64,000 bases of DNA from a virus (taxonomy: Duplodnaviria; Caudoviricetes): positions 10,130 through 74,129 of the IMG/VR virus record IMGVR_UViG_2851924183_000002, one strand, 5' to 3'. Both the position numbers and the translations under genes were made by a program. The notes beneath the pieces were generated by a model. It did no database searches and was not told where the DNA came from. It saw only the letters and a list, made by a program, of their open reading frames with translations. This document shows positions 3,228-29,582 of the stretch, one piece after another. Numbering within the stretch: position 1 is the first letter of the stretch; each line of letters begins with the position of its first letter.

Positions 3228-4136
3228 TTAAGCAGCAGAACCATCGGAGCCGTAAGCAGTTTGCCAGTGGCCATAACCAGCCGCACCGCGTGCTTCAGCA
3301 CCAAACTTAAATTCACCCTCGGTGAAAACCGAATCAGATTCAACTGTTGTTTGTTGAACAAATTCAGGCTTTTTACGTGGTTGATAAATAAATGGTTTTA
3401 ATGGTTTTGTTGTATCCAATAAGAACCAAGCATCTGGACTAGTTAACCATGCTACAACAACGACTTTGGCAGTGCCTTTGTATAAATTGGCTTTACCATC
3501 ATCTAATCGATCAGAGTTAATTAACGCATTTGCAGTTGCTTCTAATGCTGGTGGGACAAGTAATAGATTTGGATTGACGTTAAGAGGACGACCATCTTCA
3601 TCTTTCATACTCATAAGAGCAGTACGGGCTTCACCATATGATGCCGCTGCTGCTTCTTGGGATGCAGCAGATAGCTTTTTAGTCCCTTTATTGCTTACAC
3701 CCGATTTACCAACGGGGTGATTAGTCGCAAAGAATGGTTTACCGTCATAACATTTTTCGGTAAATCCTTTATTTACAGCAGTGAAAACCAACTCGTCAGG
3801 CCACTGTTTTGCCGAGTGCCCAGCACCTTGTGCTTGTGCTGAATAGATGCCAAGTTGATCATCTTCAATATCATCGCGTTTTACCGCAATAGTAGCTTCA
3901 TATGGTTTATTAACCAGAATGTAAGTATATTCAGATAGTTTTTTGATTTGCTTTTTACCGACCCATTCTTTCATACCTGGAAAGTTAGACAACCACGTAT
4001 AGTCGTTGTATTTCCCTGAACTTGGTACTTCTGAAGCAATATCTTGCCATTGGCTTGGAGCAGCAGCAAATGCACCGTTAAAAGCTCGACTTAAACCTAG
4101 AAAGATTGCTGAAATTACAGCACCGTTAATTTTCAT
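3228..4136 (-). CDS. Major capsid protein (Mu gpT family)
   Basis: YTWLSNFPGMKEWVG, CYDGKPFFATNHPV, terminal WQTAYGSDG. Confidence 0.93.
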   Translation of the reverse strand: MKINGAVISAIFLGLSRAFNGAFAAAPSQWQDIASEVPSSGKYNDYTWLSNFPGMKEWVGKKQIKKLSEYTYILVNKPYEATIAVKRDDIEDDQLGIYSAQAQGAGHSAKQWPDELVFTAVNKGFTEKCYDGKPFFATNHPVGKSGVSNKGTKKLSAASQEAAAASYGEARTALMSMKDEDGRPLNVNPNLLLVPPALEATANALINSDRLDDGKANLYKGTAKVVVVAWLTSPDAWFLLDTTKPLKPFIYQPRKKPEFVQQTTVESDSVFTEGEFKFGAEARGAAGYGHWQTAYGSDGSAA

Positions 4137-4543
4137 GCTACCCATACTCCTTCATTTGTGATTTCTAAAACAACACCACCTTCTGATTTGGTATTTGTTG
4201 CCGATGTTTTGCATACAGTTTTTGAATCGTGGATGTAGCATTTCTTACCAACCAAAGATTGAACAACTGCATCTGCACTAGCGTTATCAAATAAAAAGGC
4301 TGAATGTGTACGCACCATCACAAACACGTCTCCATCAGCACCACCAGTGTTATCAATGGTTTCATCAAAGATACCTAGATAGGTGAGTCCCGTTGCTGTT
4401 TTACCTGGTTCAGCGAATCCTGTTGAACCAACAACAGCTATATGCCCTGCAAAACAAATAGCGTTTGCTTTTACAGCAACTTGAATAAGGCCTAAATCAC
4501 GACGTGGTGTTTGGCGATCAGATCCACTTAAAATACTGCTCAT
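4133..4543 (-). CDS. Capsid decoration/cement protein
   Basis: Lies between protease and capsid; DNTGGADGD...VGKKCYIHDSKTV...GVWV. Confidence 0.7.
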   Translation of the reverse strand: MSSILSGSDRQTPRRDLGLIQVAVKANAICFAGHIAVVGSTGFAEPGKTATGLTYLGIFDETIDNTGGADGDVFVMVRTHSAFLFDNASADAVVQSLVGKKCYIHDSKTVCKTSATNTKSEGGVVLEITNEGVWVA

Positions 4544-5613
4544 GCGCCAGCTCCTAAATCAATGCCCATTTGCTTAGCTACTTCAAAATCTTCAGGTGTG
4601 TATTGACCTTGCTTTTGATGATTAGCAGCAATTTGAACGGTTTGTGTTTGTTGTTGACTTAATGCTGCGATTTTTGGCAAATCATCTAAGTATGACTTCA
4701 CAAAATCTGGGTTAGTCTTCGCTTGGTCTTTGACCCAATCAACAGTCGCCTTACCTGTCAATCGACCATCTGAGCAAGCAGCTAAAATGAGATCATCAAT
4801 TTCTTTTGCTTGTGCATTTGCCGTTACAGTGGTTGCTTGAGCTAACGCTTCTTTATGCACCGCCATTGGTACATATTTGTTTGGGTCGGGTTGTGCCTGG
4901 CTATTTGCAGCTAATTTAATTTGATCAATTGCAGAGACAGCATCAAATAAGTTTTGAGCATTAGCAGCAATTGTCGTACCTGTTTTTTCTGCAATCTGAT
5001 TGGTCAGTTTGCTGAGTTCTGCCATAATGTCTTCAGCAGTTGCTGAAATCGGCAGATTCAACATCCAACGCAGACGTTCTAATAAATCTTCGTTCATTTC
5101 TGAATCCTGAGATGTTGTTAAAAATTCTTGTGCAGCTGCTGCAAGCTTGGCTTCAGGCAACTGATCTAAATTTGGAGTGTTTGTTAATGCGACGCTATGT
5201 AAGCCGAGGATGGTTCCAGTGGTGTCATAGAAGAAGACTGGAGATATGTATTTGTATTCACCCGAATCGATAAAGCCTTGAGCTTTTTCGGTCCATTCAA
5301 ATTGAGTACTACATAAGCCAACTCCTTCTACATAGGTAAAGCCATTTGGTTTTAACCATCCAGCAGCAGGAGCAGGTTCGCCTTTTTCTTTAGCAATTAA
5401 TGTGCTGTGTTCATAATCAATGACGAGATCAACACTACGTTGATTTAACACAGCAACCATTTCACGACCATGTTCAGGCGTTAGAATCCATGCAGGCGCA
5501 TCAAATGGGCGACCATCGATACCGCGAAATTCACCTTCAGGTATAATCACAAAATGTTCAGACTGTGCTGATAAGCTCATTGAGCATGCAGCAACTAAGA
5601 GTGTGCGCTTCAT
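4540..5613 (-). CDS. Prohead protease/scaffold (Mu gpI)
   Basis: IDYEH, APAAGW, EYKYISPVF, ALTNTPNL motifs. Confidence 0.92.
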   Translation of the reverse strand: MKRTLLVAACSMSLSAQSEHFVIIPEGEFRGIDGRPFDAPAWILTPEHGREMVAVLNQRSVDLVIDYEHSTLIAKEKGEPAPAAGWLKPNGFTYVEGVGLCSTQFEWTEKAQGFIDSGEYKYISPVFFYDTTGTILGLHSVALTNTPNLDQLPEAKLAAAAQEFLTTSQDSEMNEDLLERLRWMLNLPISATAEDIMAELSKLTNQIAEKTGTTIAANAQNLFDAVSAIDQIKLAANSQAQPDPNKYVPMAVHKEALAQATTVTANAQAKEIDDLILAACSDGRLTGKATVDWVKDQAKTNPDFVKSYLDDLPKIAALSQQQTQTVQIAANHQKQGQYTPEDFEVAKQMGIDLGAGA

Positions 5614-5671
5614 ACTTCTGCATCTAACTTAAGAAACATGAGTATGAAAAACTTAAGAGGGGATTAGTGTT

Positions 5672-5683
5672 GGAATACGTTCC
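5672..5683 (-). promoter_or_regulatory. Late-activator box upstream of protease gene
   Basis: GGAAtacgTTCC, 25 bp from CATACT (5641-5646). Confidence 0.72.
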
Positions 5684-5816
5684 TTATTTTTCACTTTTTA
5701 TAATTTGCGCTGTAATGCGTTCTAACGATCAATAGATATTTCATTCAAGATTCATCGATTTAATTTTTATAAGTGCATCAATAACAATCTAACGACTATC
5801 TAACGCTATATTTATA

Positions 5817-6293
5817 TCAATCAAATAGTTTTTGATAGAAATAATCAACATCATCATAGATGGCGCTCTCAGCTTCTGACTGTAAATTACCATTTTCATC
5901 TATAGGCATAAATGGTCGCGCTGGAATATCTCCCCACGGTAATGGACCACCACGAGAAGATTTTCCATATTGCCCTTGTTTAGCACCAAATTGATGAGTC
6001 GGTGCTTTAGGATCAGAGCTGCTGATACTTGCTTCGGTATCATTAGAATCTGGCTGAATACTGTCACGAAGTTGACCAGACTGACTTAAAATTTTACCAG
6101 CCTTGCGTCTTGCCTCTGTGACTGGGCTAAGTCCAGCCCATCCAGGGCGACCTTGAGCATCAAAGTTATCTTCAACGATAGTCAAAAAACTTCCTGCTAT
6201 TGCAGAGGTCAAATCCTTTGGACGGTTTATTCCTAAAGCAACTCTAGTTAGCTTTTTGACCAATACATCATCATTGATTTGTATCACGCTCAT
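5817..6293 (-). CDS. Virion morphogenesis protein (Mu gpG family)
   Basis: NFDAQGRPGWAGLS, GKILSQSGQLRDSI, HQFG, IPARPF. Confidence 0.9.
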   Translation of the reverse strand: MSVIQINDDVLVKKLTRVALGINRPKDLTSAIAGSFLTIVEDNFDAQGRPGWAGLSPVTEARRKAGKILSQSGQLRDSIQPDSNDTEASISSSDPKAPTHQFGAKQGQYGKSSRGGPLPWGDIPARPFMPIDENGNLQSEAESAIYDDVDYFYQKLFD

Positions 6294-6309
6294 AATTTAT
6301 ACTGTTCCT

Positions 6310-6390
6310 GAGATGGTAGTTTCCTAATAGAAAGGTTACGGTCTAGCAAAGTCTATTCAGTATTATGCTGTGCAAGTCAGCCACCATCTC
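6310..6390 (+). ncRNA. Candidate tRNA-like small RNA convergent with the MuF gene
   Basis: Closing stem GAGATGGT/ACCATCTC, TTTC-ctaata-GAAA hairpin, T-arm-like GCTG-TGCAAGT-CAGC; upstream TTGATT-18-TATACT (6274-6303). Confidence 0.55.
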
Positions 6391-6391
6391 C

Positions 6392-7708
6392 TTATCTGAT
6401 CAATTCATAGTGCGTAGCATTCAATCCATCTTCAATTGCACCATCCAATATTTTAAAGATACTCACAATTTCTATTACGCCATTCTGTACTCGCAATGAA
6501 AGCTTGATTACCTTTGGATCTTTCTCATCTAAACTCTTAAGAATGTACAGAACACTATCATTTTTTACATCGTATAAAACAGTTTTAACGTTAGCGATGA
6601 GAATAGGTAATTCTTGCCATTCAGCCACGCTTACCGCATCACCAGCATTTTTATGGCGCTTGGCTTTTTTCCCAATGAGAAGACGATCTTCAACTGTAAT
6701 GATAGGACTTTCAATTGTTTGTCCTTTTTTAAGCAAGTATGCAACTTCTTCCGCTTGGAACACACCAACCGTACTTGTTTTACCTTGAGATTTAGCAAAA
6801 CTTAGGGTGTTCTCAATAAATGCATAATGGGCTTTTTGACGAATAGGGGCGGTTAAAACTTGTTGGACTTGCTTTAAACCTTCCATATCTCCTAAGTACT
6901 TTCGAGCACGCTCTGTCAATACTTGGTCCACAGCATAGCTTGTTGCTGGTGAGCTGTTGAATCCAGCCGCAGGGCTAAAGCTTATGACTCCATCTTTAGT
7001 TGGAATGTCAAAGCGTTGACGTGTCGCATAAACATCAGCACCTGTAAAACTATCTACGCCAATTTTTTCAGAATATTGAGTCTGATAACCATCACTACTT
7101 AAAATTTCTTTACCTTCAACTTCACGTTCAGATCTAGCAATAACACGGCAATTACAACCAAATTTTGAAGGAGGGTAGGCAGTTGTCCAAAACGGGTCGT
7201 CAGCTCTTAAAATACGACCATTCCACGATTTATGCTCTTCACGATAGTTCACCATCGTAATGTGTCGATACTCCCAATAAGGACGTGTATCAATAGATTC
7301 CATCATTGCTTTATAACGCCCAGCACTAAAAGCCGAACGCATATTGGTGTGATAAATCGTTCGCAATCGACGTGGAGATCCAAGCTGTACTTCTTGCTCT
7401 TGACCAGCTGGATTAATCACAGTTTTTTTACCCCACCAACCTTTTTCTTGAAGTATTGGGGTAATTTCAGCTTTCCACTTTTCAAGACTTTGACCTTTTT
7501 CCAAAGCCGTGATTAATGATTTCTTAATGTCCTGCAACAAGTCTAATTTAGCAACTTTTGCCACAGTGAATGCACGACTATGTGCGTCATCTAAGGTTTG
7601 ATGCCAATCCCATCCGATTTTATAACCTTTGTTTTTTAAGTATTGAATCGCTTCTTCGGGTGGTTTATGAAATAGAGCATTCAATTCAGGGCGTTGAGGT
7701 GTGGGCAT
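6392..7708 (-). CDS. MuF (gp30) head morphogenesis protein with C-terminal PBECR-like extension
   Basis: RAFTVAKV, GSPRRLRTIYHTN, PPSKFGCNCRV; extension RH..GD.VS..EW..LP..I....VLYD....VLYI. Confidence 0.88.
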   Translation of the reverse strand: MPTPQRPELNALFHKPPEEAIQYLKNKGYKIGWDWHQTLDDAHSRAFTVAKVAKLDLLQDIKKSLITALEKGQSLEKWKAEITPILQEKGWWGKKTVINPAGQEQEVQLGSPRRLRTIYHTNMRSAFSAGRYKAMMESIDTRPYWEYRHITMVNYREEHKSWNGRILRADDPFWTTAYPPSKFGCNCRVIARSEREVEGKEILSSDGYQTQYSEKIGVDSFTGADVYATRQRFDIPTKDGVISFSPAAGFNSSPATSYAVDQVLTERARKYLGDMEGLKQVQQVLTAPIRQKAHYAFIENTLSFAKSQGKTSTVGVFQAEEVAYLLKKGQTIESPIITVEDRLLIGKKAKRHKNAGDAVSVAEWQELPILIANVKTVLYDVKNDSVLYILKSLDEKDPKVIKLSLRVQNGVIEIVSIFKILDGAIEDGLNATHYELIR

Positions 7709-9288
7709 TATTCAACCTCAGCTTCAGCACTTAAGCGACCAAGCATTTCACAAGCAAAGATCAGCTGCGTTAATTTCTCTTGAAGGGCAGGTTCATCATC
7801 GTGTGGATGTAGCTCAGAAAGCAGATGAAGTACTTCTTCCTCATTGCTACCAGCTTGAATTTTCTTAACCAATTCAGTAAGCCATTGCTCCGAAATGACC
7901 TGGCTATTTTCGTCTTGTTCCTTTAAAAGCAACCGCATCGCTTGATCTTCTAACGGAACATTTGCAGTATTCGCAGCTAGTGATTGCGTTAGAAGTCGAG
8001 GAGAAAAAGTATTGGCTGCAAGATTACGAAAATCTGAATTCATTTCTTTCGATTGTTTTGTTAGAACCTCTTCATTTTCATCCGTAGGCATTGGTATGCC
8101 AGTTCGCTCATGTGCCCATCGAACAGGAATTTTCATACCGTTATCGACTAGAGCACCAATCGATTCACTGAACGCCTTTAAGTCTTCCGTTTCAGTCAAA
8201 TCAAAGTAGAATTTTGGATAACGATCAGGTGTAATATTTGGATAATTCAAACGCATTAAATGCGTAATTAATGAATCATTAATTGATCTTGCAAGCTGTT
8301 TAGAATCCGATTTAACAATGACTTCAAATTGATTTTCATGTGTTTGGCTTTGTGCATTAGTACTGGTTTTACCATCAGCCTGGCTAAGTAAAGTCCCACC
8401 CACAATAATTTTTGATTGGGTTTGCTCACACCATTTGATTAACGCCATATGATTATCAGTGTCACCATTTGCAGCACTTTCAAAATCAATGGTCATGCCT
8501 TTCGGAATAATACCTCCAGCATTACGTCCGATACTCATAACAGCGCGTAGCAGTGTCATTTTCTCTTCAGCTGTTGCGCCTTCAGCATATTGACCGATAC
8601 GAATTGGCAAGCCATAAATTTCTAAGAATTCCATGACATCACGAACGCCATAGTTTTTAAATAAGAAAGGCCAAGATAAAACACGATGTAAACCTGATCG
8701 TGCAATATATCCAGACTTCGCTTTATGACGATGAATAAACCAACCAAAATCCCAAAACTCAGCACCTTCCATTGATCCATCATTAAGACGTAGTTCATTG
8801 GGGCGATCAACAGGAGTCATAAAATTGCGTGCTAATTGATGCTCAAAACTTGCAGGTAGCCATAGTGAGCCTATACGTTCCCATTTGATTTCTTGGCAGC
8901 TGTAGCCATGACCAACCGCATCCATTGCATCAAACAAGAACATTTCAAAATCTTGAATCTCATCAATCCATTCTTTAATTTCTTCAGCAATCTTTTTTTC
9001 TTGGTCCGTTGCATTCTTGGGAGGGTTTATTCCCCAAGGCAAGCCATTTACACCTTTCCGACGTTTGTCCATTTCACTAAAGATATGACCATCACGTTCT
9101 TCCATATCTGCAAAAAGATCAGCTTGAGCTTGAAGACTACCTTGTTCAGCACCGAGGAGTAATTTATGGAGGCGTGCAGGCGTTAGACCAACAACAGGAT
9201 GTTCTTGCCACTGATTTGTTAACCAAGCCACATCAGAGGTCTGAGTCGTTTCTAACGCTTGTTTTTGAGATTTATCTTTTTTAGCCAT
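7708..9288 (-). CDS. Portal protein (Mu gp29, DUF935)
   Basis: HPVVGLTPARL, LFADMEERDGHIFSEMDKR, FLEIYGLPIRIG, GGTLLSQADGK. Confidence 0.93.
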   Translation of the reverse strand: MAKKDKSQKQALETTQTSDVAWLTNQWQEHPVVGLTPARLHKLLLGAEQGSLQAQADLFADMEERDGHIFSEMDKRRKGVNGLPWGINPPKNATDQEKKIAEEIKEWIDEIQDFEMFLFDAMDAVGHGYSCQEIKWERIGSLWLPASFEHQLARNFMTPVDRPNELRLNDGSMEGAEFWDFGWFIHRHKAKSGYIARSGLHRVLSWPFLFKNYGVRDVMEFLEIYGLPIRIGQYAEGATAEEKMTLLRAVMSIGRNAGGIIPKGMTIDFESAANGDTDNHMALIKWCEQTQSKIIVGGTLLSQADGKTSTNAQSQTHENQFEVIVKSDSKQLARSINDSLITHLMRLNYPNITPDRYPKFYFDLTETEDLKAFSESIGALVDNGMKIPVRWAHERTGIPMPTDENEEVLTKQSKEMNSDFRNLAANTFSPRLLTQSLAANTANVPLEDQAMRLLLKEQDENSQVISEQWLTELVKKIQAGSNEEEVLHLLSELHPHDDEPALQEKLTQLIFACEMLGRLSAEAEVE

Positions 9289-9348
9289 AACAAAAAGCAC
9301 AATACGAGATTGTGCTTAGTTTGGGGCAGGCTTGTATATATTTAGAGT

Positions 9349-29267: not shown

Positions 29268-29325
29268 TGGCTTGTTCCTGTTAGTCAAGTTTTAAACCTG
29301 ACACCAACACTTTCCACGGTATTGG

Positions 29326-29401
29326 TGACAGACTGAATAGGGGTGGAAATACCGTACTAACAGGTAACGGCCAGCCGAAGCTGCCCTATCCAGCCTGCCA
29401 T
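29326..29401 (-). ncRNA. C4/CI-type antisense immunity RNA
   Basis: Outer stem GGCAGGCTGGATAGGG/CCCTATTCAGTCTGTC, CAGC-TTCG-GCTG hairpin, loops CCTGTTAGT and TTTCCAC complementary to flanking target pairs. Confidence 0.85.
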
Positions 29402-29582
29402 AAAAGGCACAGCCGAATTTTACGCAAAAAAATAGCCGCATGGGCGGACTTTTTACGCCTGTTAGTGTTTTTAGGTTTCCACGCCTAACCACAGATTTTG
29501 CTGTGGTAAATTTAGAGTAGCTTAGATACTATATGCGCGTCAATACTTTATAAAAAATTGTGATTTGGGTGGGGGGTTGGGG

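What the first reader, a model, noticed from the sequence alone, without database searches (positions are those of the whole stretch)
6274..7708. MuF nuclease-like tail paired with an antisense tRNA-like RNA instead of an immunity protein
Seen: the 98-bp gap between the MuF stop (6392) and gpG holds no ORF. It is almost fully occupied by a folded element on the opposite strand: 8-bp closing stem GAGATGGT(6310-17)/ACCATCTC(6383-90), a D-arm-like hairpin TTTC-ctaata-GAAA, and a T-arm-like GCTG-TGCAAGT-CAGC one base before the 3' stem strand. There is no canonical anticodon arm. A promoter TTGATT-18-TATACT (6274-6303) overlapping the gpG start points at it, and the element ends 1 nt from the MuF stop. 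Known: MuF proteins are virion-packaged, often carry C-terminal toxin domains, and usually have a downstream immunity gene; this ~180-aa extension resembles PBECR (barnase/EndoU/colicin D/RelE-like) RNases. Inference: an RNA antitoxin or tRNA decoy expressed in the lysogen that neutralises or arms a virion-delivered RNase, i.e. a possibly undescribed protein-RNA toxin/immunity module.
Basis: partly seen in the sequence, partly recalled or inferred. Interest (0 to 1): 0.85.

Follow-up and report, generated by a model that had tools for sequence, protein, structure and literature searches.

The report
Anticodon-less tRNA mimic beside MuF RNase
Between head genes F and G of this Mu-like prophage, on the opposite strand, lies a real small gene for a tRNA-shaped RNA without an anticodon loop, and among related phages it is found next to F only where F keeps the histidine loop of its predicted RNA-cutting tail, so it is probably that enzyme's RNA partner, most likely its antidote.

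Summary
The 98-nt F-G gap (6294-6391) holds an 81-nt four-helix element (6310-6390). It is conserved in 23 distinct copies. 12 of 18 base pairs show compensatory changes, and 0 of 500 shuffles reach this.

The E. coli counterpart at the same place is annotated tRNA-OTHER and passes Rfam's tRNA model with the anticodon arm skipped.

F's tail is not a variable toxin extension. It is the family's normal MuF-C/PBECR-type domain.

Of 78 close relatives with a complete F tail, 18 of 18 with the His-bearing loop carry the RNA gene. 60 of 60 without the loop have overlapping or nearly abutting F and G (gap 7 nt or less) and no RNA gene. That needs at least three joint changes on a tree. RNA copies without F exist. 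A His-type F without an RNA-sized F-G gap was not seen.

Transcription, toxicity and the antidote role are untested. This scan has noted the same module in at least eight other genomes. I found no paper describing it.

The parts
6310..6390 (+). Gene for the tRNA-shaped RNA (81 nt from first to last paired base; true ends not mapped)
   Evidence: The covariance model built from 17 copies scores it 114.5 bits. There are four helices, and 98.5% of cells are paired in 23 distinct copies.
6310..6317 (+). P1, 5' strand of the acceptor-like closing stem (pairs with 6383-6390)
   Evidence: 5 of 8 pairs have compensatory changes and 100% of cells are paired on this strand. The eighth pair runs U:A / U.G / C:G.
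6323..6335 (+). D-like arm CCU-AAUAGAA-AGG
   Evidence: The third pair changes U:A to A:U in 3 copies. The loop is AAUAGAA in 20, AAAAGAA in 2 and AAUGGAA in 1 of 23 copies.
6337..6362 (+). Variable arm in place of the anticodon arm: base UAC/GUA plus a hairpin of variable length
   Evidence: All 3 base pairs covary. The insert is 0 to about 15 nt and carries GCAA or GAAA caps in 6 of 23 copies when read on this strand.
6367..6381 (+). T-like arm GCUG-UGCAAGU-CAGC
   Evidence: 3 of 4 pairs covary. The loop is invariant in 22 of 23 copies; the exception, L354, has UUCGAGU, a canonical T loop.
6383..6390 (+). P1, 3' strand
   Evidence: As for 6310-6317. It ends 1 nt before the F stop codon.
6274..6279 (+). 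-35-like hexamer TTGATT, inside G codons 5-7
   Evidence: TTGA is kept in 14 of 15 distinct element-bearing loci at this position. In the fifteenth (L348) it lies in a remnant of the donor's G start.
6298..6303 (+). -10-like hexamer TATACT
   Evidence: TAnnnT in 23 of 23 copies (TATACT 18, TAAACT 3, TATATT 1, TATAGT 1), 6-9 nt before P1.
6392..7708 (-). Gene F (438 aa), Mu F-type minor head protein
   Evidence: Pfam Phage_Mu_F 74.3 bits and PHROG 220 at E 6.8e-97. It aligns over its full length with JBD30-type F.
6395..6811 (-). F residues 300-438: C-terminal MuF-C/PBECR-type domain
   Evidence: AlphaFold model with pLDDT 91 and pTM 0.84: a helix followed by four strands. Pfam MuF_C gives 15.1 bits, below the 27.6 cut-off. 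BFVD matches to polyvalent-protein domains reach E 7.4e-7.
6638..6664 (-). F residues 349-357 (AKRHKNAGD): the loop that is deleted in relatives without the RNA gene. The His352 codon is 6653-6655.
   Evidence: Alignments. The segment lies in helix 48-55 of the domain model.
6461..6463 (-). Codon of Ser416, in the fourth strand of the domain
   Evidence: The IVS[IV]FK motif is kept in 15 of 15 element-bearing Acinetobacter-type rows of A6. It lies in strand 112-122 of the model.
5817..6293 (-). Gene G (158 aa), Mu G-type virion morphogenesis / tail completion protein
   Evidence: Pfam Phage_tail_S 59.9 bits.

Best explanation
The gap holds an independent small-RNA gene. A sigma-70-type promoter, whose -35 lies in the first codons of G, drives transcription opposite to the late operon. 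The RNA starts at or just before the closing stem (inferred). It folds into a tRNA-shaped four-way junction with an acceptor-like stem, a D-like arm, a T-like arm, and a capped hairpin of variable length where the anticodon arm should be. It is functionally tied to the C-terminal MuF-C/PBECR domain of the virion protein F, in the version that keeps the His-in-helix and Ser-in-strand-4 arrangement predicted for an active BECR-fold RNase. Most likely mechanism (inferred, not shown): the RNA is a tRNA mimic that occupies the RNase's substrate site but offers no anticodon loop to cut. It would then act as an RNA antidote, or immunity factor. It would protect the lysogen and the producing cell from F, and would let hosts or other elements that hold an orphan copy resist F delivered by incoming particles. 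My odds: real RNA gene on this strand 0.9; functional coupling with F's RNase-type domain 0.7; antidote/immunity role 0.4-0.45.
For: Structure: 12 of 18 pairs have compensatory changes and 94-98% of cells are paired. 0 of 500 shuffles reach this, and versions with partners slid by 1-3 columns fall to 26-55% paired.

Strand:
- On the same 17 sequences, 98.4% of cells pair on the plus strand against 94.4% on the mRNA strand.
- 14 cells (19 in the 23-copy set) are G.U on the plus strand but A.C on the mRNA strand, against 1 the other way.
- The RNAalifold consensus energy is -20.1 against -16.4 kcal/mol.
- The variable hairpins carry GCAA or GAAA caps and extra G.U pairs only on the plus strand.

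Promoter: the -10 is present in 23 of 23 copies, 6-9 nt before P1. TTGA of the -35 is kept through a synonymous Ile/Phe codon choice. L003 keeps TTGATA-18-TATACT although its G starts 50 nt further on. L104 (53% GC) has TTGTCA-17-TATAGT.

tRNA likeness:
- The E. coli Mu-like prophage has, at the same place and on the same strand, an 80-nt gene that PGAP names tRNA-OTHER.
- Rfam's tRNA model scores that gene 31.0 bits (threshold 29) with the anticodon arm skipped.
- L059 and L047 show canonical T arms.
- L354 changes the T loop to UUCGAGU together with the D-like loop to AAUGGAA.

F domain: Iyer et al. 2017 (PMC5512222, section 19 read) place Mu F's C-terminus in the PBECR RNase clade. [quoted passage not shown] The model here has H352 in that helix and S416 in the fourth strand.

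Coupling:
- Of 78 relatives with a complete F tail, 18 of 18 with the His loop have an 89-150-nt gap and a model hit.
- 60 of 60 without the loop have a gap of -7 to +7 nt and no hit.
- The deletions come in four forms of 7-9 residues.
- The joint state needs at least 3 changes on a tree of the C-terminal domain and at least 5-6 on a tree of the N-terminal 330 residues.
- Outside this clade, His-type F proteins in L027, L047, L052, L059, L464, L472, L474 and L104 all have gaps of 80-200 nt closed by a long stem.
- Mu, JBD30, PM105, Bhz63 and Kp4852-3 lack the loop and have overlapping F and G.

Asymmetry typical of toxin-antidote pairs: RNA copies occur without F. One is a solo copy in Acinetobacter genome G058. 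Two are tandem homologues on an E. coli island. No His-type F was seen without such a gap. One phage carries two tandem copies behind a single promoter.
Against: - No direct evidence of transcription or strand. The four RNA runs are held only as contigs, which cannot show strand, level or ends.
- No terminator follows the element on the plus strand, so the 3' end must come from processing (assumed).
- The His loop is only about 250 bp from the RNA gene. Co-inheritance as one recombination cassette could give the association without any interaction, and many of the 78 loci are near-copies.
- RNase activity and toxicity of F are predictions. Pfam MuF_C is below threshold for this protein (15.1 against 27.6 bits). 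No PDB structure matches significantly: the best is E 0.18, and RelE/HigB-type toxins only recur among weak hits.
- The late mRNA is fully complementary to the RNA and could titrate it just when F is made.
- An antidote needed during late growth would more simply be co-transcribed with F.
- Orphan copies fit an F-independent function equally well.
- Three cases are unresolved: RS138 (the F reading frame breaks after the His motif), L473 (no His, yet a 140-nt gap and no G) and L471 (broken F).
Confidence: 0.42

Rival explanations
1. The RNA is a partner of F's RNase-type domain but not its inhibitor. It could be a substrate that F processes, a cofactor or guide that arms it, or a cargo that F binds and carries into the capsid and the next host.
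For: The same co-occurrence data as for the antidote reading. Iyer et al. 2017 (PMC5512222, section 19) suggest RNA binding as a role for this domain in Mu. The missing terminator means some nuclease must make the 3' end. Two tandem copies sit behind one promoter and need cutting apart.
Against: Orphan copies without any F nearby are harder to explain if the RNA only works with its own F. No data on virion RNA.
Confidence: 0.2
2. The RNA is an independent moron with its own job, for example a tRNA decoy against host anticodon nucleases or another defence system. It is merely linked to the His-type F tail because both travel on one cassette.
For: It has its own promoter and is oriented against the late operon. 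It sits where relatives have overlapping genes. Orphan copies exist on an E. coli island and beside a CRISPR array. The His loop and the RNA gene are only about 250 bp apart.
Against: There are at least 3 joint changes on the C-terminal tree, with four different small deletions that remove just the His loop. In the L350 group the loop, the RNA gene and sequence constraint on the tail (branch length 1.2) were lost together in situ. The association holds in clades where neither the RNA nor F is alignable at the DNA level.
Confidence: 0.15
3. It is a cis-antisense regulator. The RNA pairs with the portal-F-G late mRNA to control processing, or the ratio of F to G.
For: It is perfectly complementary to the F-G junction of the late transcript. 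The X15 RNA-library contig 5340-6481 bridges G, the element and the end of F, so a form joining them is present in an RNA library.
Against: A cis-antisense RNA pairs whatever its sequence. Invariant loops and junctions (AGUUU, UUAU and UGCAAGU in 22-23 of 23 copies), GNRA caps and a tRNA-type fold point instead to a trans-acting partner. The RNA does not cover G's start codon. This reading does not explain the link with the His loop.
Confidence: 0.1
4. The functional strand is the mRNA strand: a structured spacer in the late transcript that restores F-G translational coupling or marks an RNase cut.
For: Helices fold on either strand. The stem brings the F stop and the G start close together. 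One G.U cell (L098) exists only on the mRNA strand.
Against: 17 of 303 cells are unpaired on the mRNA strand against 5 of 304 on the other. The eighth P1 pair is C.A in 11 of 17 sequences on the mRNA strand. GNRA caps and the conserved -10/-35 exist only on the other strand. The E. coli homologue matches the tRNA model on the antisense strand.
Confidence: 0.05

Closest known systems
Canonical bacterial and phage tRNA genes (Rfam RF00005)
   Same: Acceptor-like stem of 7-8 bp. T-like arm with a G:C closing pair and a 7-nt loop with U at position 1, C at 3, a purine at 4 and A at 5. D-like arm. The E. coli homologue passes the Rfam threshold and is annotated tRNA-OTHER.
   Different: No anticodon arm: a capped hairpin of variable length takes its place. 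The T stem has 4 bp, and 1 nt separates it from the acceptor strand. The linker after the acceptor is 5 nt, not 2. No CCA is encoded. ARAGORN and Rfam do not call the window's copy.
MuF-C / PBECR clade of predicted phage BECR-fold RNases (Iyer et al. 2017, PMC5512222; section 19 and passages read)
   Same: C-terminal domain of a Mu F protein. A helix followed by four strands, with His in the helix and Ser in strand 4. Structural matches to domains of polyvalent phage proteins.
   Different: That paper describes no RNA partner. It calls Mu's own copy inactive. The Pfam model matches this protein only weakly.
MuF polymorphic toxins with downstream immunity proteins (Jamet et al. 2017, PMC5576092; passages read)
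   Same: An N-terminal MuF domain with a C-terminal predicted nuclease in a temperate phage's head module, and a dedicated small gene directly downstream. The tail and its partner are lost or exchanged together.
   Different: [quoted passage not shown] Here no conserved ORF exists: the downstream gene encodes an RNA and points the other way. Supplementary tables of that paper could not be seen.
Type III toxin-antitoxin systems (ToxIN and relatives; PMC8860590 seen as a search listing and abstract only)
   Same: A protein endoribonuclease proposed to be held in check by a structured non-coding RNA encoded beside it.
   Different: Type III antitoxins are tandem short repeats upstream of the toxin on the same strand, and the toxin itself processes them. 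Here there is a single tRNA-shaped unit, downstream and convergent, with its own promoter. The toxin fold and its delivery (a virion protein) also differ.
Colicin D and its immunity protein ImmD (recalled from memory; no call)
   Same: A BECR-fold tRNase whose inhibitor is said to imitate the tRNA substrate.
   Different: ImmD is a protein that imitates RNA. Here the proposed inhibitor is itself an RNA.

Membership tests
tRNA (Rfam RF00005 / ARAGORN) | Recognised by tRNA search programs | tested here: not met
   ARAGORN finds 0 genes in the window. There is no Rfam match at the gap at E <= 10. The E. coli homologue at the same locus does pass (31.0 bits against 29; PGAP names it tRNA-OTHER).
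tRNA (Rfam RF00005 / ARAGORN) | Anticodon arm with a 5-bp stem and a 7-nt loop | tested here: not met
   It is replaced by UAC/GUA plus a hairpin of 0 to about 15 nt that differs between copies.
tRNA (Rfam RF00005 / ARAGORN) | Acceptor stem, T arm with T-loop motif, D arm | tested here: inconclusive
   The acceptor-like stem and a 4-bp T-like arm with loop UGCAAGU are present and covary. Position 2 of the loop is G, not U, except in L354 (UUCGAGU). The D-like loop lacks GG except in L354.
MuF-C / PBECR RNase domain | Match to Pfam MuF_C (PF18819) or a PBECR model | tested here: inconclusive
   15.1 bits and E 0.026, below the 27.6 cut-off. 6 of 24 aligned relatives match at E <= 1, the best at 5.6e-5. 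The E. coli homologue scores 29.9 bits and Mu F 21.0 bits. No PBECR1-5 model matched.
MuF-C / PBECR RNase domain | [quoted passage not shown] | tested here: met
   The model of residues 300-438 has helix 48-55 and then strands 77-81, 86-92, 100-109 and 112-122, at pLDDT 91. The similarity to solved RelE/HigB toxins is not significant.
MuF-C / PBECR RNase domain | [quoted passage not shown] | tested here: met
   H352 and S416. His is present in 17 of 17 rows of A6 that have the loop and absent, by deletion, from 7 of 7 others.
MuF-C / PBECR RNase domain | RNase activity | not testable with these tools
   This needs an enzyme assay.
MuF polymorphic toxin-immunity module | MuF domain plus a C-terminal extension of 100 aa or more | tested here: met
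   Phage_Mu_F covers residues 59-190 of 438.
MuF polymorphic toxin-immunity module | Small immunity ORF directly downstream | tested here: not met
   There is no conserved ORF in the gap. Candidate frames differ between copies.
Type III toxin-antitoxin | Tandem-repeat RNA antitoxin upstream of the toxin and on the same strand | tested here: not met
   A single unit, downstream and convergent, in all copies aligned here; the one exception, L343, holds two tandem copies.
Type III toxin-antitoxin | Toxin of the ToxN/CptN/TenpN families | tested here: not met
   Pfam finds only Phage_Mu_F and weak MuF_C. The PADLOC library was not searched.

The most novel reading that the evidence does not exclude
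Mu-like phages of many bacterial groups carry a two-part weapon-and-shield cassette: a virion-packaged tRNA-directed RNase (F's tail) and an anticodon-less tRNA mimic that is its RNA immunity factor. Orphan copies have been captured by other elements and by hosts. One example is a Mor-encoding E. coli island. Another is a solo copy transcribed in line with a type I-F-like CRISPR array in Acinetobacter. These would serve as protection against incoming particles. If so, this is the first tRNA-shaped antitoxin and the first RNA immunity gene of a polymorphic-toxin-type system.
Probability: 0.3. Interest if true: 0.9.

Novelty: new variant of a known kind. Interest (0 to 1): 0.8.

Why it matters
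If the reading holds, the head protein F of Mu-like phages is in many lineages an injected RNase. F has been studied for decades without a clear role for its C-terminal half. Its safety catch would be an RNA shaped like its probable substrate. That would add an RNA-based immunity mechanism to polymorphic toxin systems. It would give a function to the "tRNA-OTHER" genes that annotation pipelines leave unexplained in 172-175 of 5426 complete E. coli genomes. It would also offer a compact, testable RNase-inhibitor pair. The strict one-way association gives a clear genetic prediction: F with His never lacks the RNA, while the RNA sometimes lacks F.

Tried and rejected
Single-sequence folding gave z-scores of only -1.45 and -1.54, so it supports nothing.

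ARAGORN and Rfam were negative on the window's element.

blastn of F+G against 50,697 phage records found no match.

After filtering for a paired stem, it gave no family member beyond those found with the D-arm motif. That also means the metagenome collection was not really sampled.

RNA runs are all kept as contigs, so they carry no strand, level or end information. A 151-nt contig of X17 starts at 6310, the first base of P1. A contig of X18 ends at 6312. These come from two studies and are at most a weak hint of an RNA end. I do not count them as evidence.

Foldseek of the whole F model against PDB gave nothing. Against PDB the domain model also had no significant match.

A viral-contig scan with the L047 F protein gave few new relatives.

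ARAGORN and Rfam at E <= 1 did not call the gap elements of L027, L029, L047, L059, L033 or L052. Their tRNA likeness rests on my reading of the folds.

My first trait, "any His in residues 331-375", was too crude and mislabelled rows. I replaced it with presence of the aligned loop.

A small conserved peptide in the gap was considered and rejected, because the frames are not conserved.

Spacers of the G058 CRISPR array were compared with the window and all loci. Only one 21-nt match turned up, at 95% (sp17 against L103), so there is no evidence that the array targets these phages.

A likeness between P1 and CRISPR repeat stems was considered. I dropped it because P1 covaries freely between copies.

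Papers: searches for tRNA-like/Mu-like/prophage/antisense, PBECR (4 papers), Sp18/Mu-like/small RNA and tRNA-like/RNA antitoxin/phage/RNase toxin found no description of this RNA. PMC13502914 mentions the Mu-like prophage Sp18 only because it had excised (passages).

Complex prediction was not used because it takes no RNA. Supplementary files were not opened.
Full report
WHAT IS THERE

The window is part of an IMG/VR provirus record. Its left part is the head module of a Mu-like prophage on the minus strand:
- portal, 7708-9300
- F, 6392-7708
- G, 5817-6293
- protease I, 4540-5613
- capsid T, 3228-4145

The closest named genomes with the same F are Acinetobacter species.

On this sequence alone nothing is significant. 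Fold z-scores are about -1.5 on both strands. ARAGORN calls no tRNA and Rfam has no match.

THE ELEMENT IS A CONSERVED STRUCTURED RNA

Relatives of F were collected from viral contigs and genomes. Some have F and G overlapping (ATGA). Others have an 87-150-nt spacer homologous to the window's.

Seventeen distinct spacers align into four helices:
- RNAalifold finds compensatory changes in 12 of 17 predicted pairs.
- With my four-helix structure, 12 of 18 pairs have changes on both sides.
- 0 of 500 column shuffles reach the observed covariation or the percentage paired.
- Sliding the partners by 1-3 columns drops pairing to 26-55%.

A covariance model built from these sequences finds one locus in each of 6 of 151 Acinetobacter genomes. 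It finds nothing in relatives without the spacer. With 23 distinct copies, three of the four helices are 100% paired.

Loops and junctions are almost invariant: AGUUU and UUAU in 23 of 23 copies, and the T-like loop in 22 of 23. No reading frame in the gap is conserved.

WHICH STRAND

Helices fold on both strands, so I used features that do not.
- On the same 17 sequences, 5 of 304 cells are unpaired on the plus strand against 17 of 303 on the mRNA strand.
- 14 cells are G.U on the plus strand and A.C on the other, against one the other way.
- The eighth P1 pair runs U:A (8), U.G (14), C:G (1) on the plus strand, a classic path through a wobble pair.
- The variable hairpins end in GCAA or GAAA in 6 of 23 copies, and in the second copy of L343. 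They contain further G.U pairs only when read on the plus strand.
- The consensus fold is 3.7 kcal/mol better on the plus strand.
- A TAnnnT hexamer lies 6-9 nt before P1 in 23 of 23 copies.
- The TTGA of a -35 lies 17-18 nt further up, inside G's codons 5-7.
- That Ile/Phe codon ends in C in all 14 element-bearing loci where the G start adjoins the element. Element-less relatives with Ile there use ATT about as often as ATC.
- In L003/L348 the phage's own G starts 50 nt further away. A short remnant of another G start, holding TTGATA, still stands 18 nt from TATACT.

IT IS tRNA-SHAPED

The window's copy fails the tRNA programs. The family, however, grades into recognisable tRNA shapes.
- L354 has the T loop UUCGAGU together with GG in the D-like loop, where 20 others have UGCAAGU and AG.
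- In more distant His-type phages the gap holds closing-stem structures. Their antisense strands show canonical T arms (L047, L059) and, in L059, a standard D arm (my reading of the folds). ARAGORN and Rfam do not call them.
- In an E. coli Mu-like prophage, the 80 nt between F and G are annotated by NCBI's pipeline as tRNA-OTHER, on the strand opposite F and G.
- Rfam's tRNA model scores that E. coli gene 31.0 bits (threshold 29). It aligns the acceptor, D and T arms and skips the anticodon arm.
- That E. coli version occurs in 172-175 of 5426 complete genomes.

THE F TAIL

The tail is not an add-on.
- All relatives examined have F of 400-472 aa where the gene is complete.
- JBD30-type Pseudomonas phages align over 100% of the protein.
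- Iyer et al. 2017 (section 19 read) assign Mu F's C-terminus (MuF-C) to the PBECR clade of BECR-fold RNases. [quoted passage not shown]
- Pfam MuF_C matches this protein only weakly. It matches the E. coli homologue above threshold.
- A model of residues 300-438 (pLDDT 91) has a helix carrying K-R-H352 and then four strands, with S416 in the last one.
- It resembles domains of polyvalent phage proteins (E down to 7.4e-7).
- It resembles no solved structure significantly. RelE/HigB/Cami1-type toxins merely recur among the weak hits.

THE COUPLING

In the alignments, the segment around the His is a 7-9-residue loop that is either present or cleanly deleted.
- Eighty close relatives were fetched. 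Two have an incomplete F (L417 frame-broken, L426 cut by the contig end).
- Of the other 78, 18 of 18 with the loop have an 89-150-nt gap and a model hit.
- 60 of 60 without the loop have a gap of -7 to +7 nt and no hit.
- Many of these loci are near-copies, so I counted events on trees. L410 was dropped for a short F, and the window's own copy was added.
- The joint state needs at least 6 changes (5 on well-supported branches) on a tree of residues 1-330.
- It needs at least 3 changes on a tree of the C-terminal domain with the loop columns removed.
- The deletions have four different forms.
- The L350 group is sister to the window's own clade. It has lost the loop and the RNA gene, and its tail sits on a long branch (1.2).

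Outside the clade:
- His-type F proteins in L027, L047, L052, L059, L104, L464, L472 and L474 all have gaps of 80-200 nt.
- Mu, JBD30, PM105, Bhz63 and Kp4852-3 lack the loop and have overlapping F and G.
- Unresolved: RS138, L473 and L471.

The converse does not hold strictly.
- Acinetobacter genome G058 has a solo copy (95.7 bits) with about 25 codons of G and about 18 codons of F around it. There is no F or G gene nearby.
- An E. coli island encoding a RepA-type helicase, SSB, PerC and a Mor-family activator ends in two tandem homologues and has no F.

HOW IT MOST LIKELY WORKS

Shown:
- a conserved, structured, tRNA-shaped element whose selected strand is antisense to the late operon
- a conserved promoter-like site in front of it
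- a one-way association with the His-bearing form of a predicted RNase domain 250 bp away

Inferred:
- that it is transcribed from that promoter
- that F's tail is an active RNase carried in the virion
- that the RNA binds it

The pattern "toxin never without partner, partner sometimes alone" fits a toxin-immunity pair. So does cassette-like joint loss. So does a mimic that keeps the tRNA body but lacks the loop that BECR tRNases usually cut. Jamet et al. 2017 report a small ORF after 89.4% of 191 MuF toxin genes (passages). Here an RNA gene stands in that place.

Weak points of this reading:
- physical linkage of the two features
- the absence of any expression or activity data
- the awkward fact that the late mRNA is complementary to the RNA

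I put the antidote reading at about 0.4. A non-inhibitory partnership gets about 0.2, an independent linked moron about 0.15, cis-antisense control about 0.1, and a sense-strand mRNA structure about 0.05.

NOVELTY

The parts are known kinds: tRNA-like genes, PBECR domains and RNA antitoxins. The combination is not in the papers I could search. Pipelines annotate the E. coli version as tRNA-OTHER without comment.

Earlier reports of this same scan describe the same module in at least eight other genomes and reach the same reading. They are unchecked AI notes and I count them as leads, not support. My reading was recorded before I saw them.

Noticed in passing
L344 1-1430 and 1431-1760 (Acinetobacter genome G058, contig 25): A solo copy of the RNA gene, with its promoter, lies directly after the last of the 24 repeats seen in the locus of a CRISPR array (28-nt repeats, 32-nt spacers; the array runs off the locus's left end). 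It is on the same strand as the array and is followed by a U6 run and a convergent gyrA. Only about 25 codons of G and about 18 codons of F remain around it. One case only, so its meaning is open: a host-kept antidote, or the by-product of recombination at a spacer.
   Followed up: partly
L476 2879-3078 (E. coli chromosome NZ_AP045176.1): An island encoding a RepA-family helicase, SSB, a PerC-family regulator and a Mor-family activator ends with two tandem homologues of the E. coli F-G RNA. They are annotated tRNA-OTHER and tRNA-Tyr, have different acceptor stems, and no F is nearby. ARAGORN calls neither.
   Followed up: partly
L343 1501-1700 (Acinetobacter genome G021): Two tandem copies of the RNA gene lie 4 nt apart in one F-G gap, with a promoter-like site only before the first. 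The second copy has a 10-bp closing stem and a GAAA-capped arm with two G.U pairs.
   Followed up: partly
window 29321-29507, minus strand: Rfam matches above threshold to C4 antisense RNA (69.2 bits) and isrK (50.8 bits), side by side, far from the Mu-like head module. They probably belong to the immunity region of the second prophage in the window.
   Followed up: no
L003 4400-4470 (= L348): Between the RNA gene and this phage's G lies a 16-codon remnant of another G start that still carries the -35. This looks like the scar of a cassette exchange.
   Followed up: partly
window 5614-5816: A 203-nt gap lies between G and protease I. Earlier notes of this scan place a late-promoter dyad there. 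In phage Mu the corresponding gap holds the annotated gyrase cut site. In JBD30 it holds an anti-CRISPR gene.
   Followed up: no
L022 / L417 and L463 (Ralstonia phage RS138): F is cut short at 321 aa in L022/L417. In RS138 the F reading frame breaks just after the His motif, and the annotated G overlaps it by 44 nt. These are either sequencing errors or real frameshifts.
   Followed up: no
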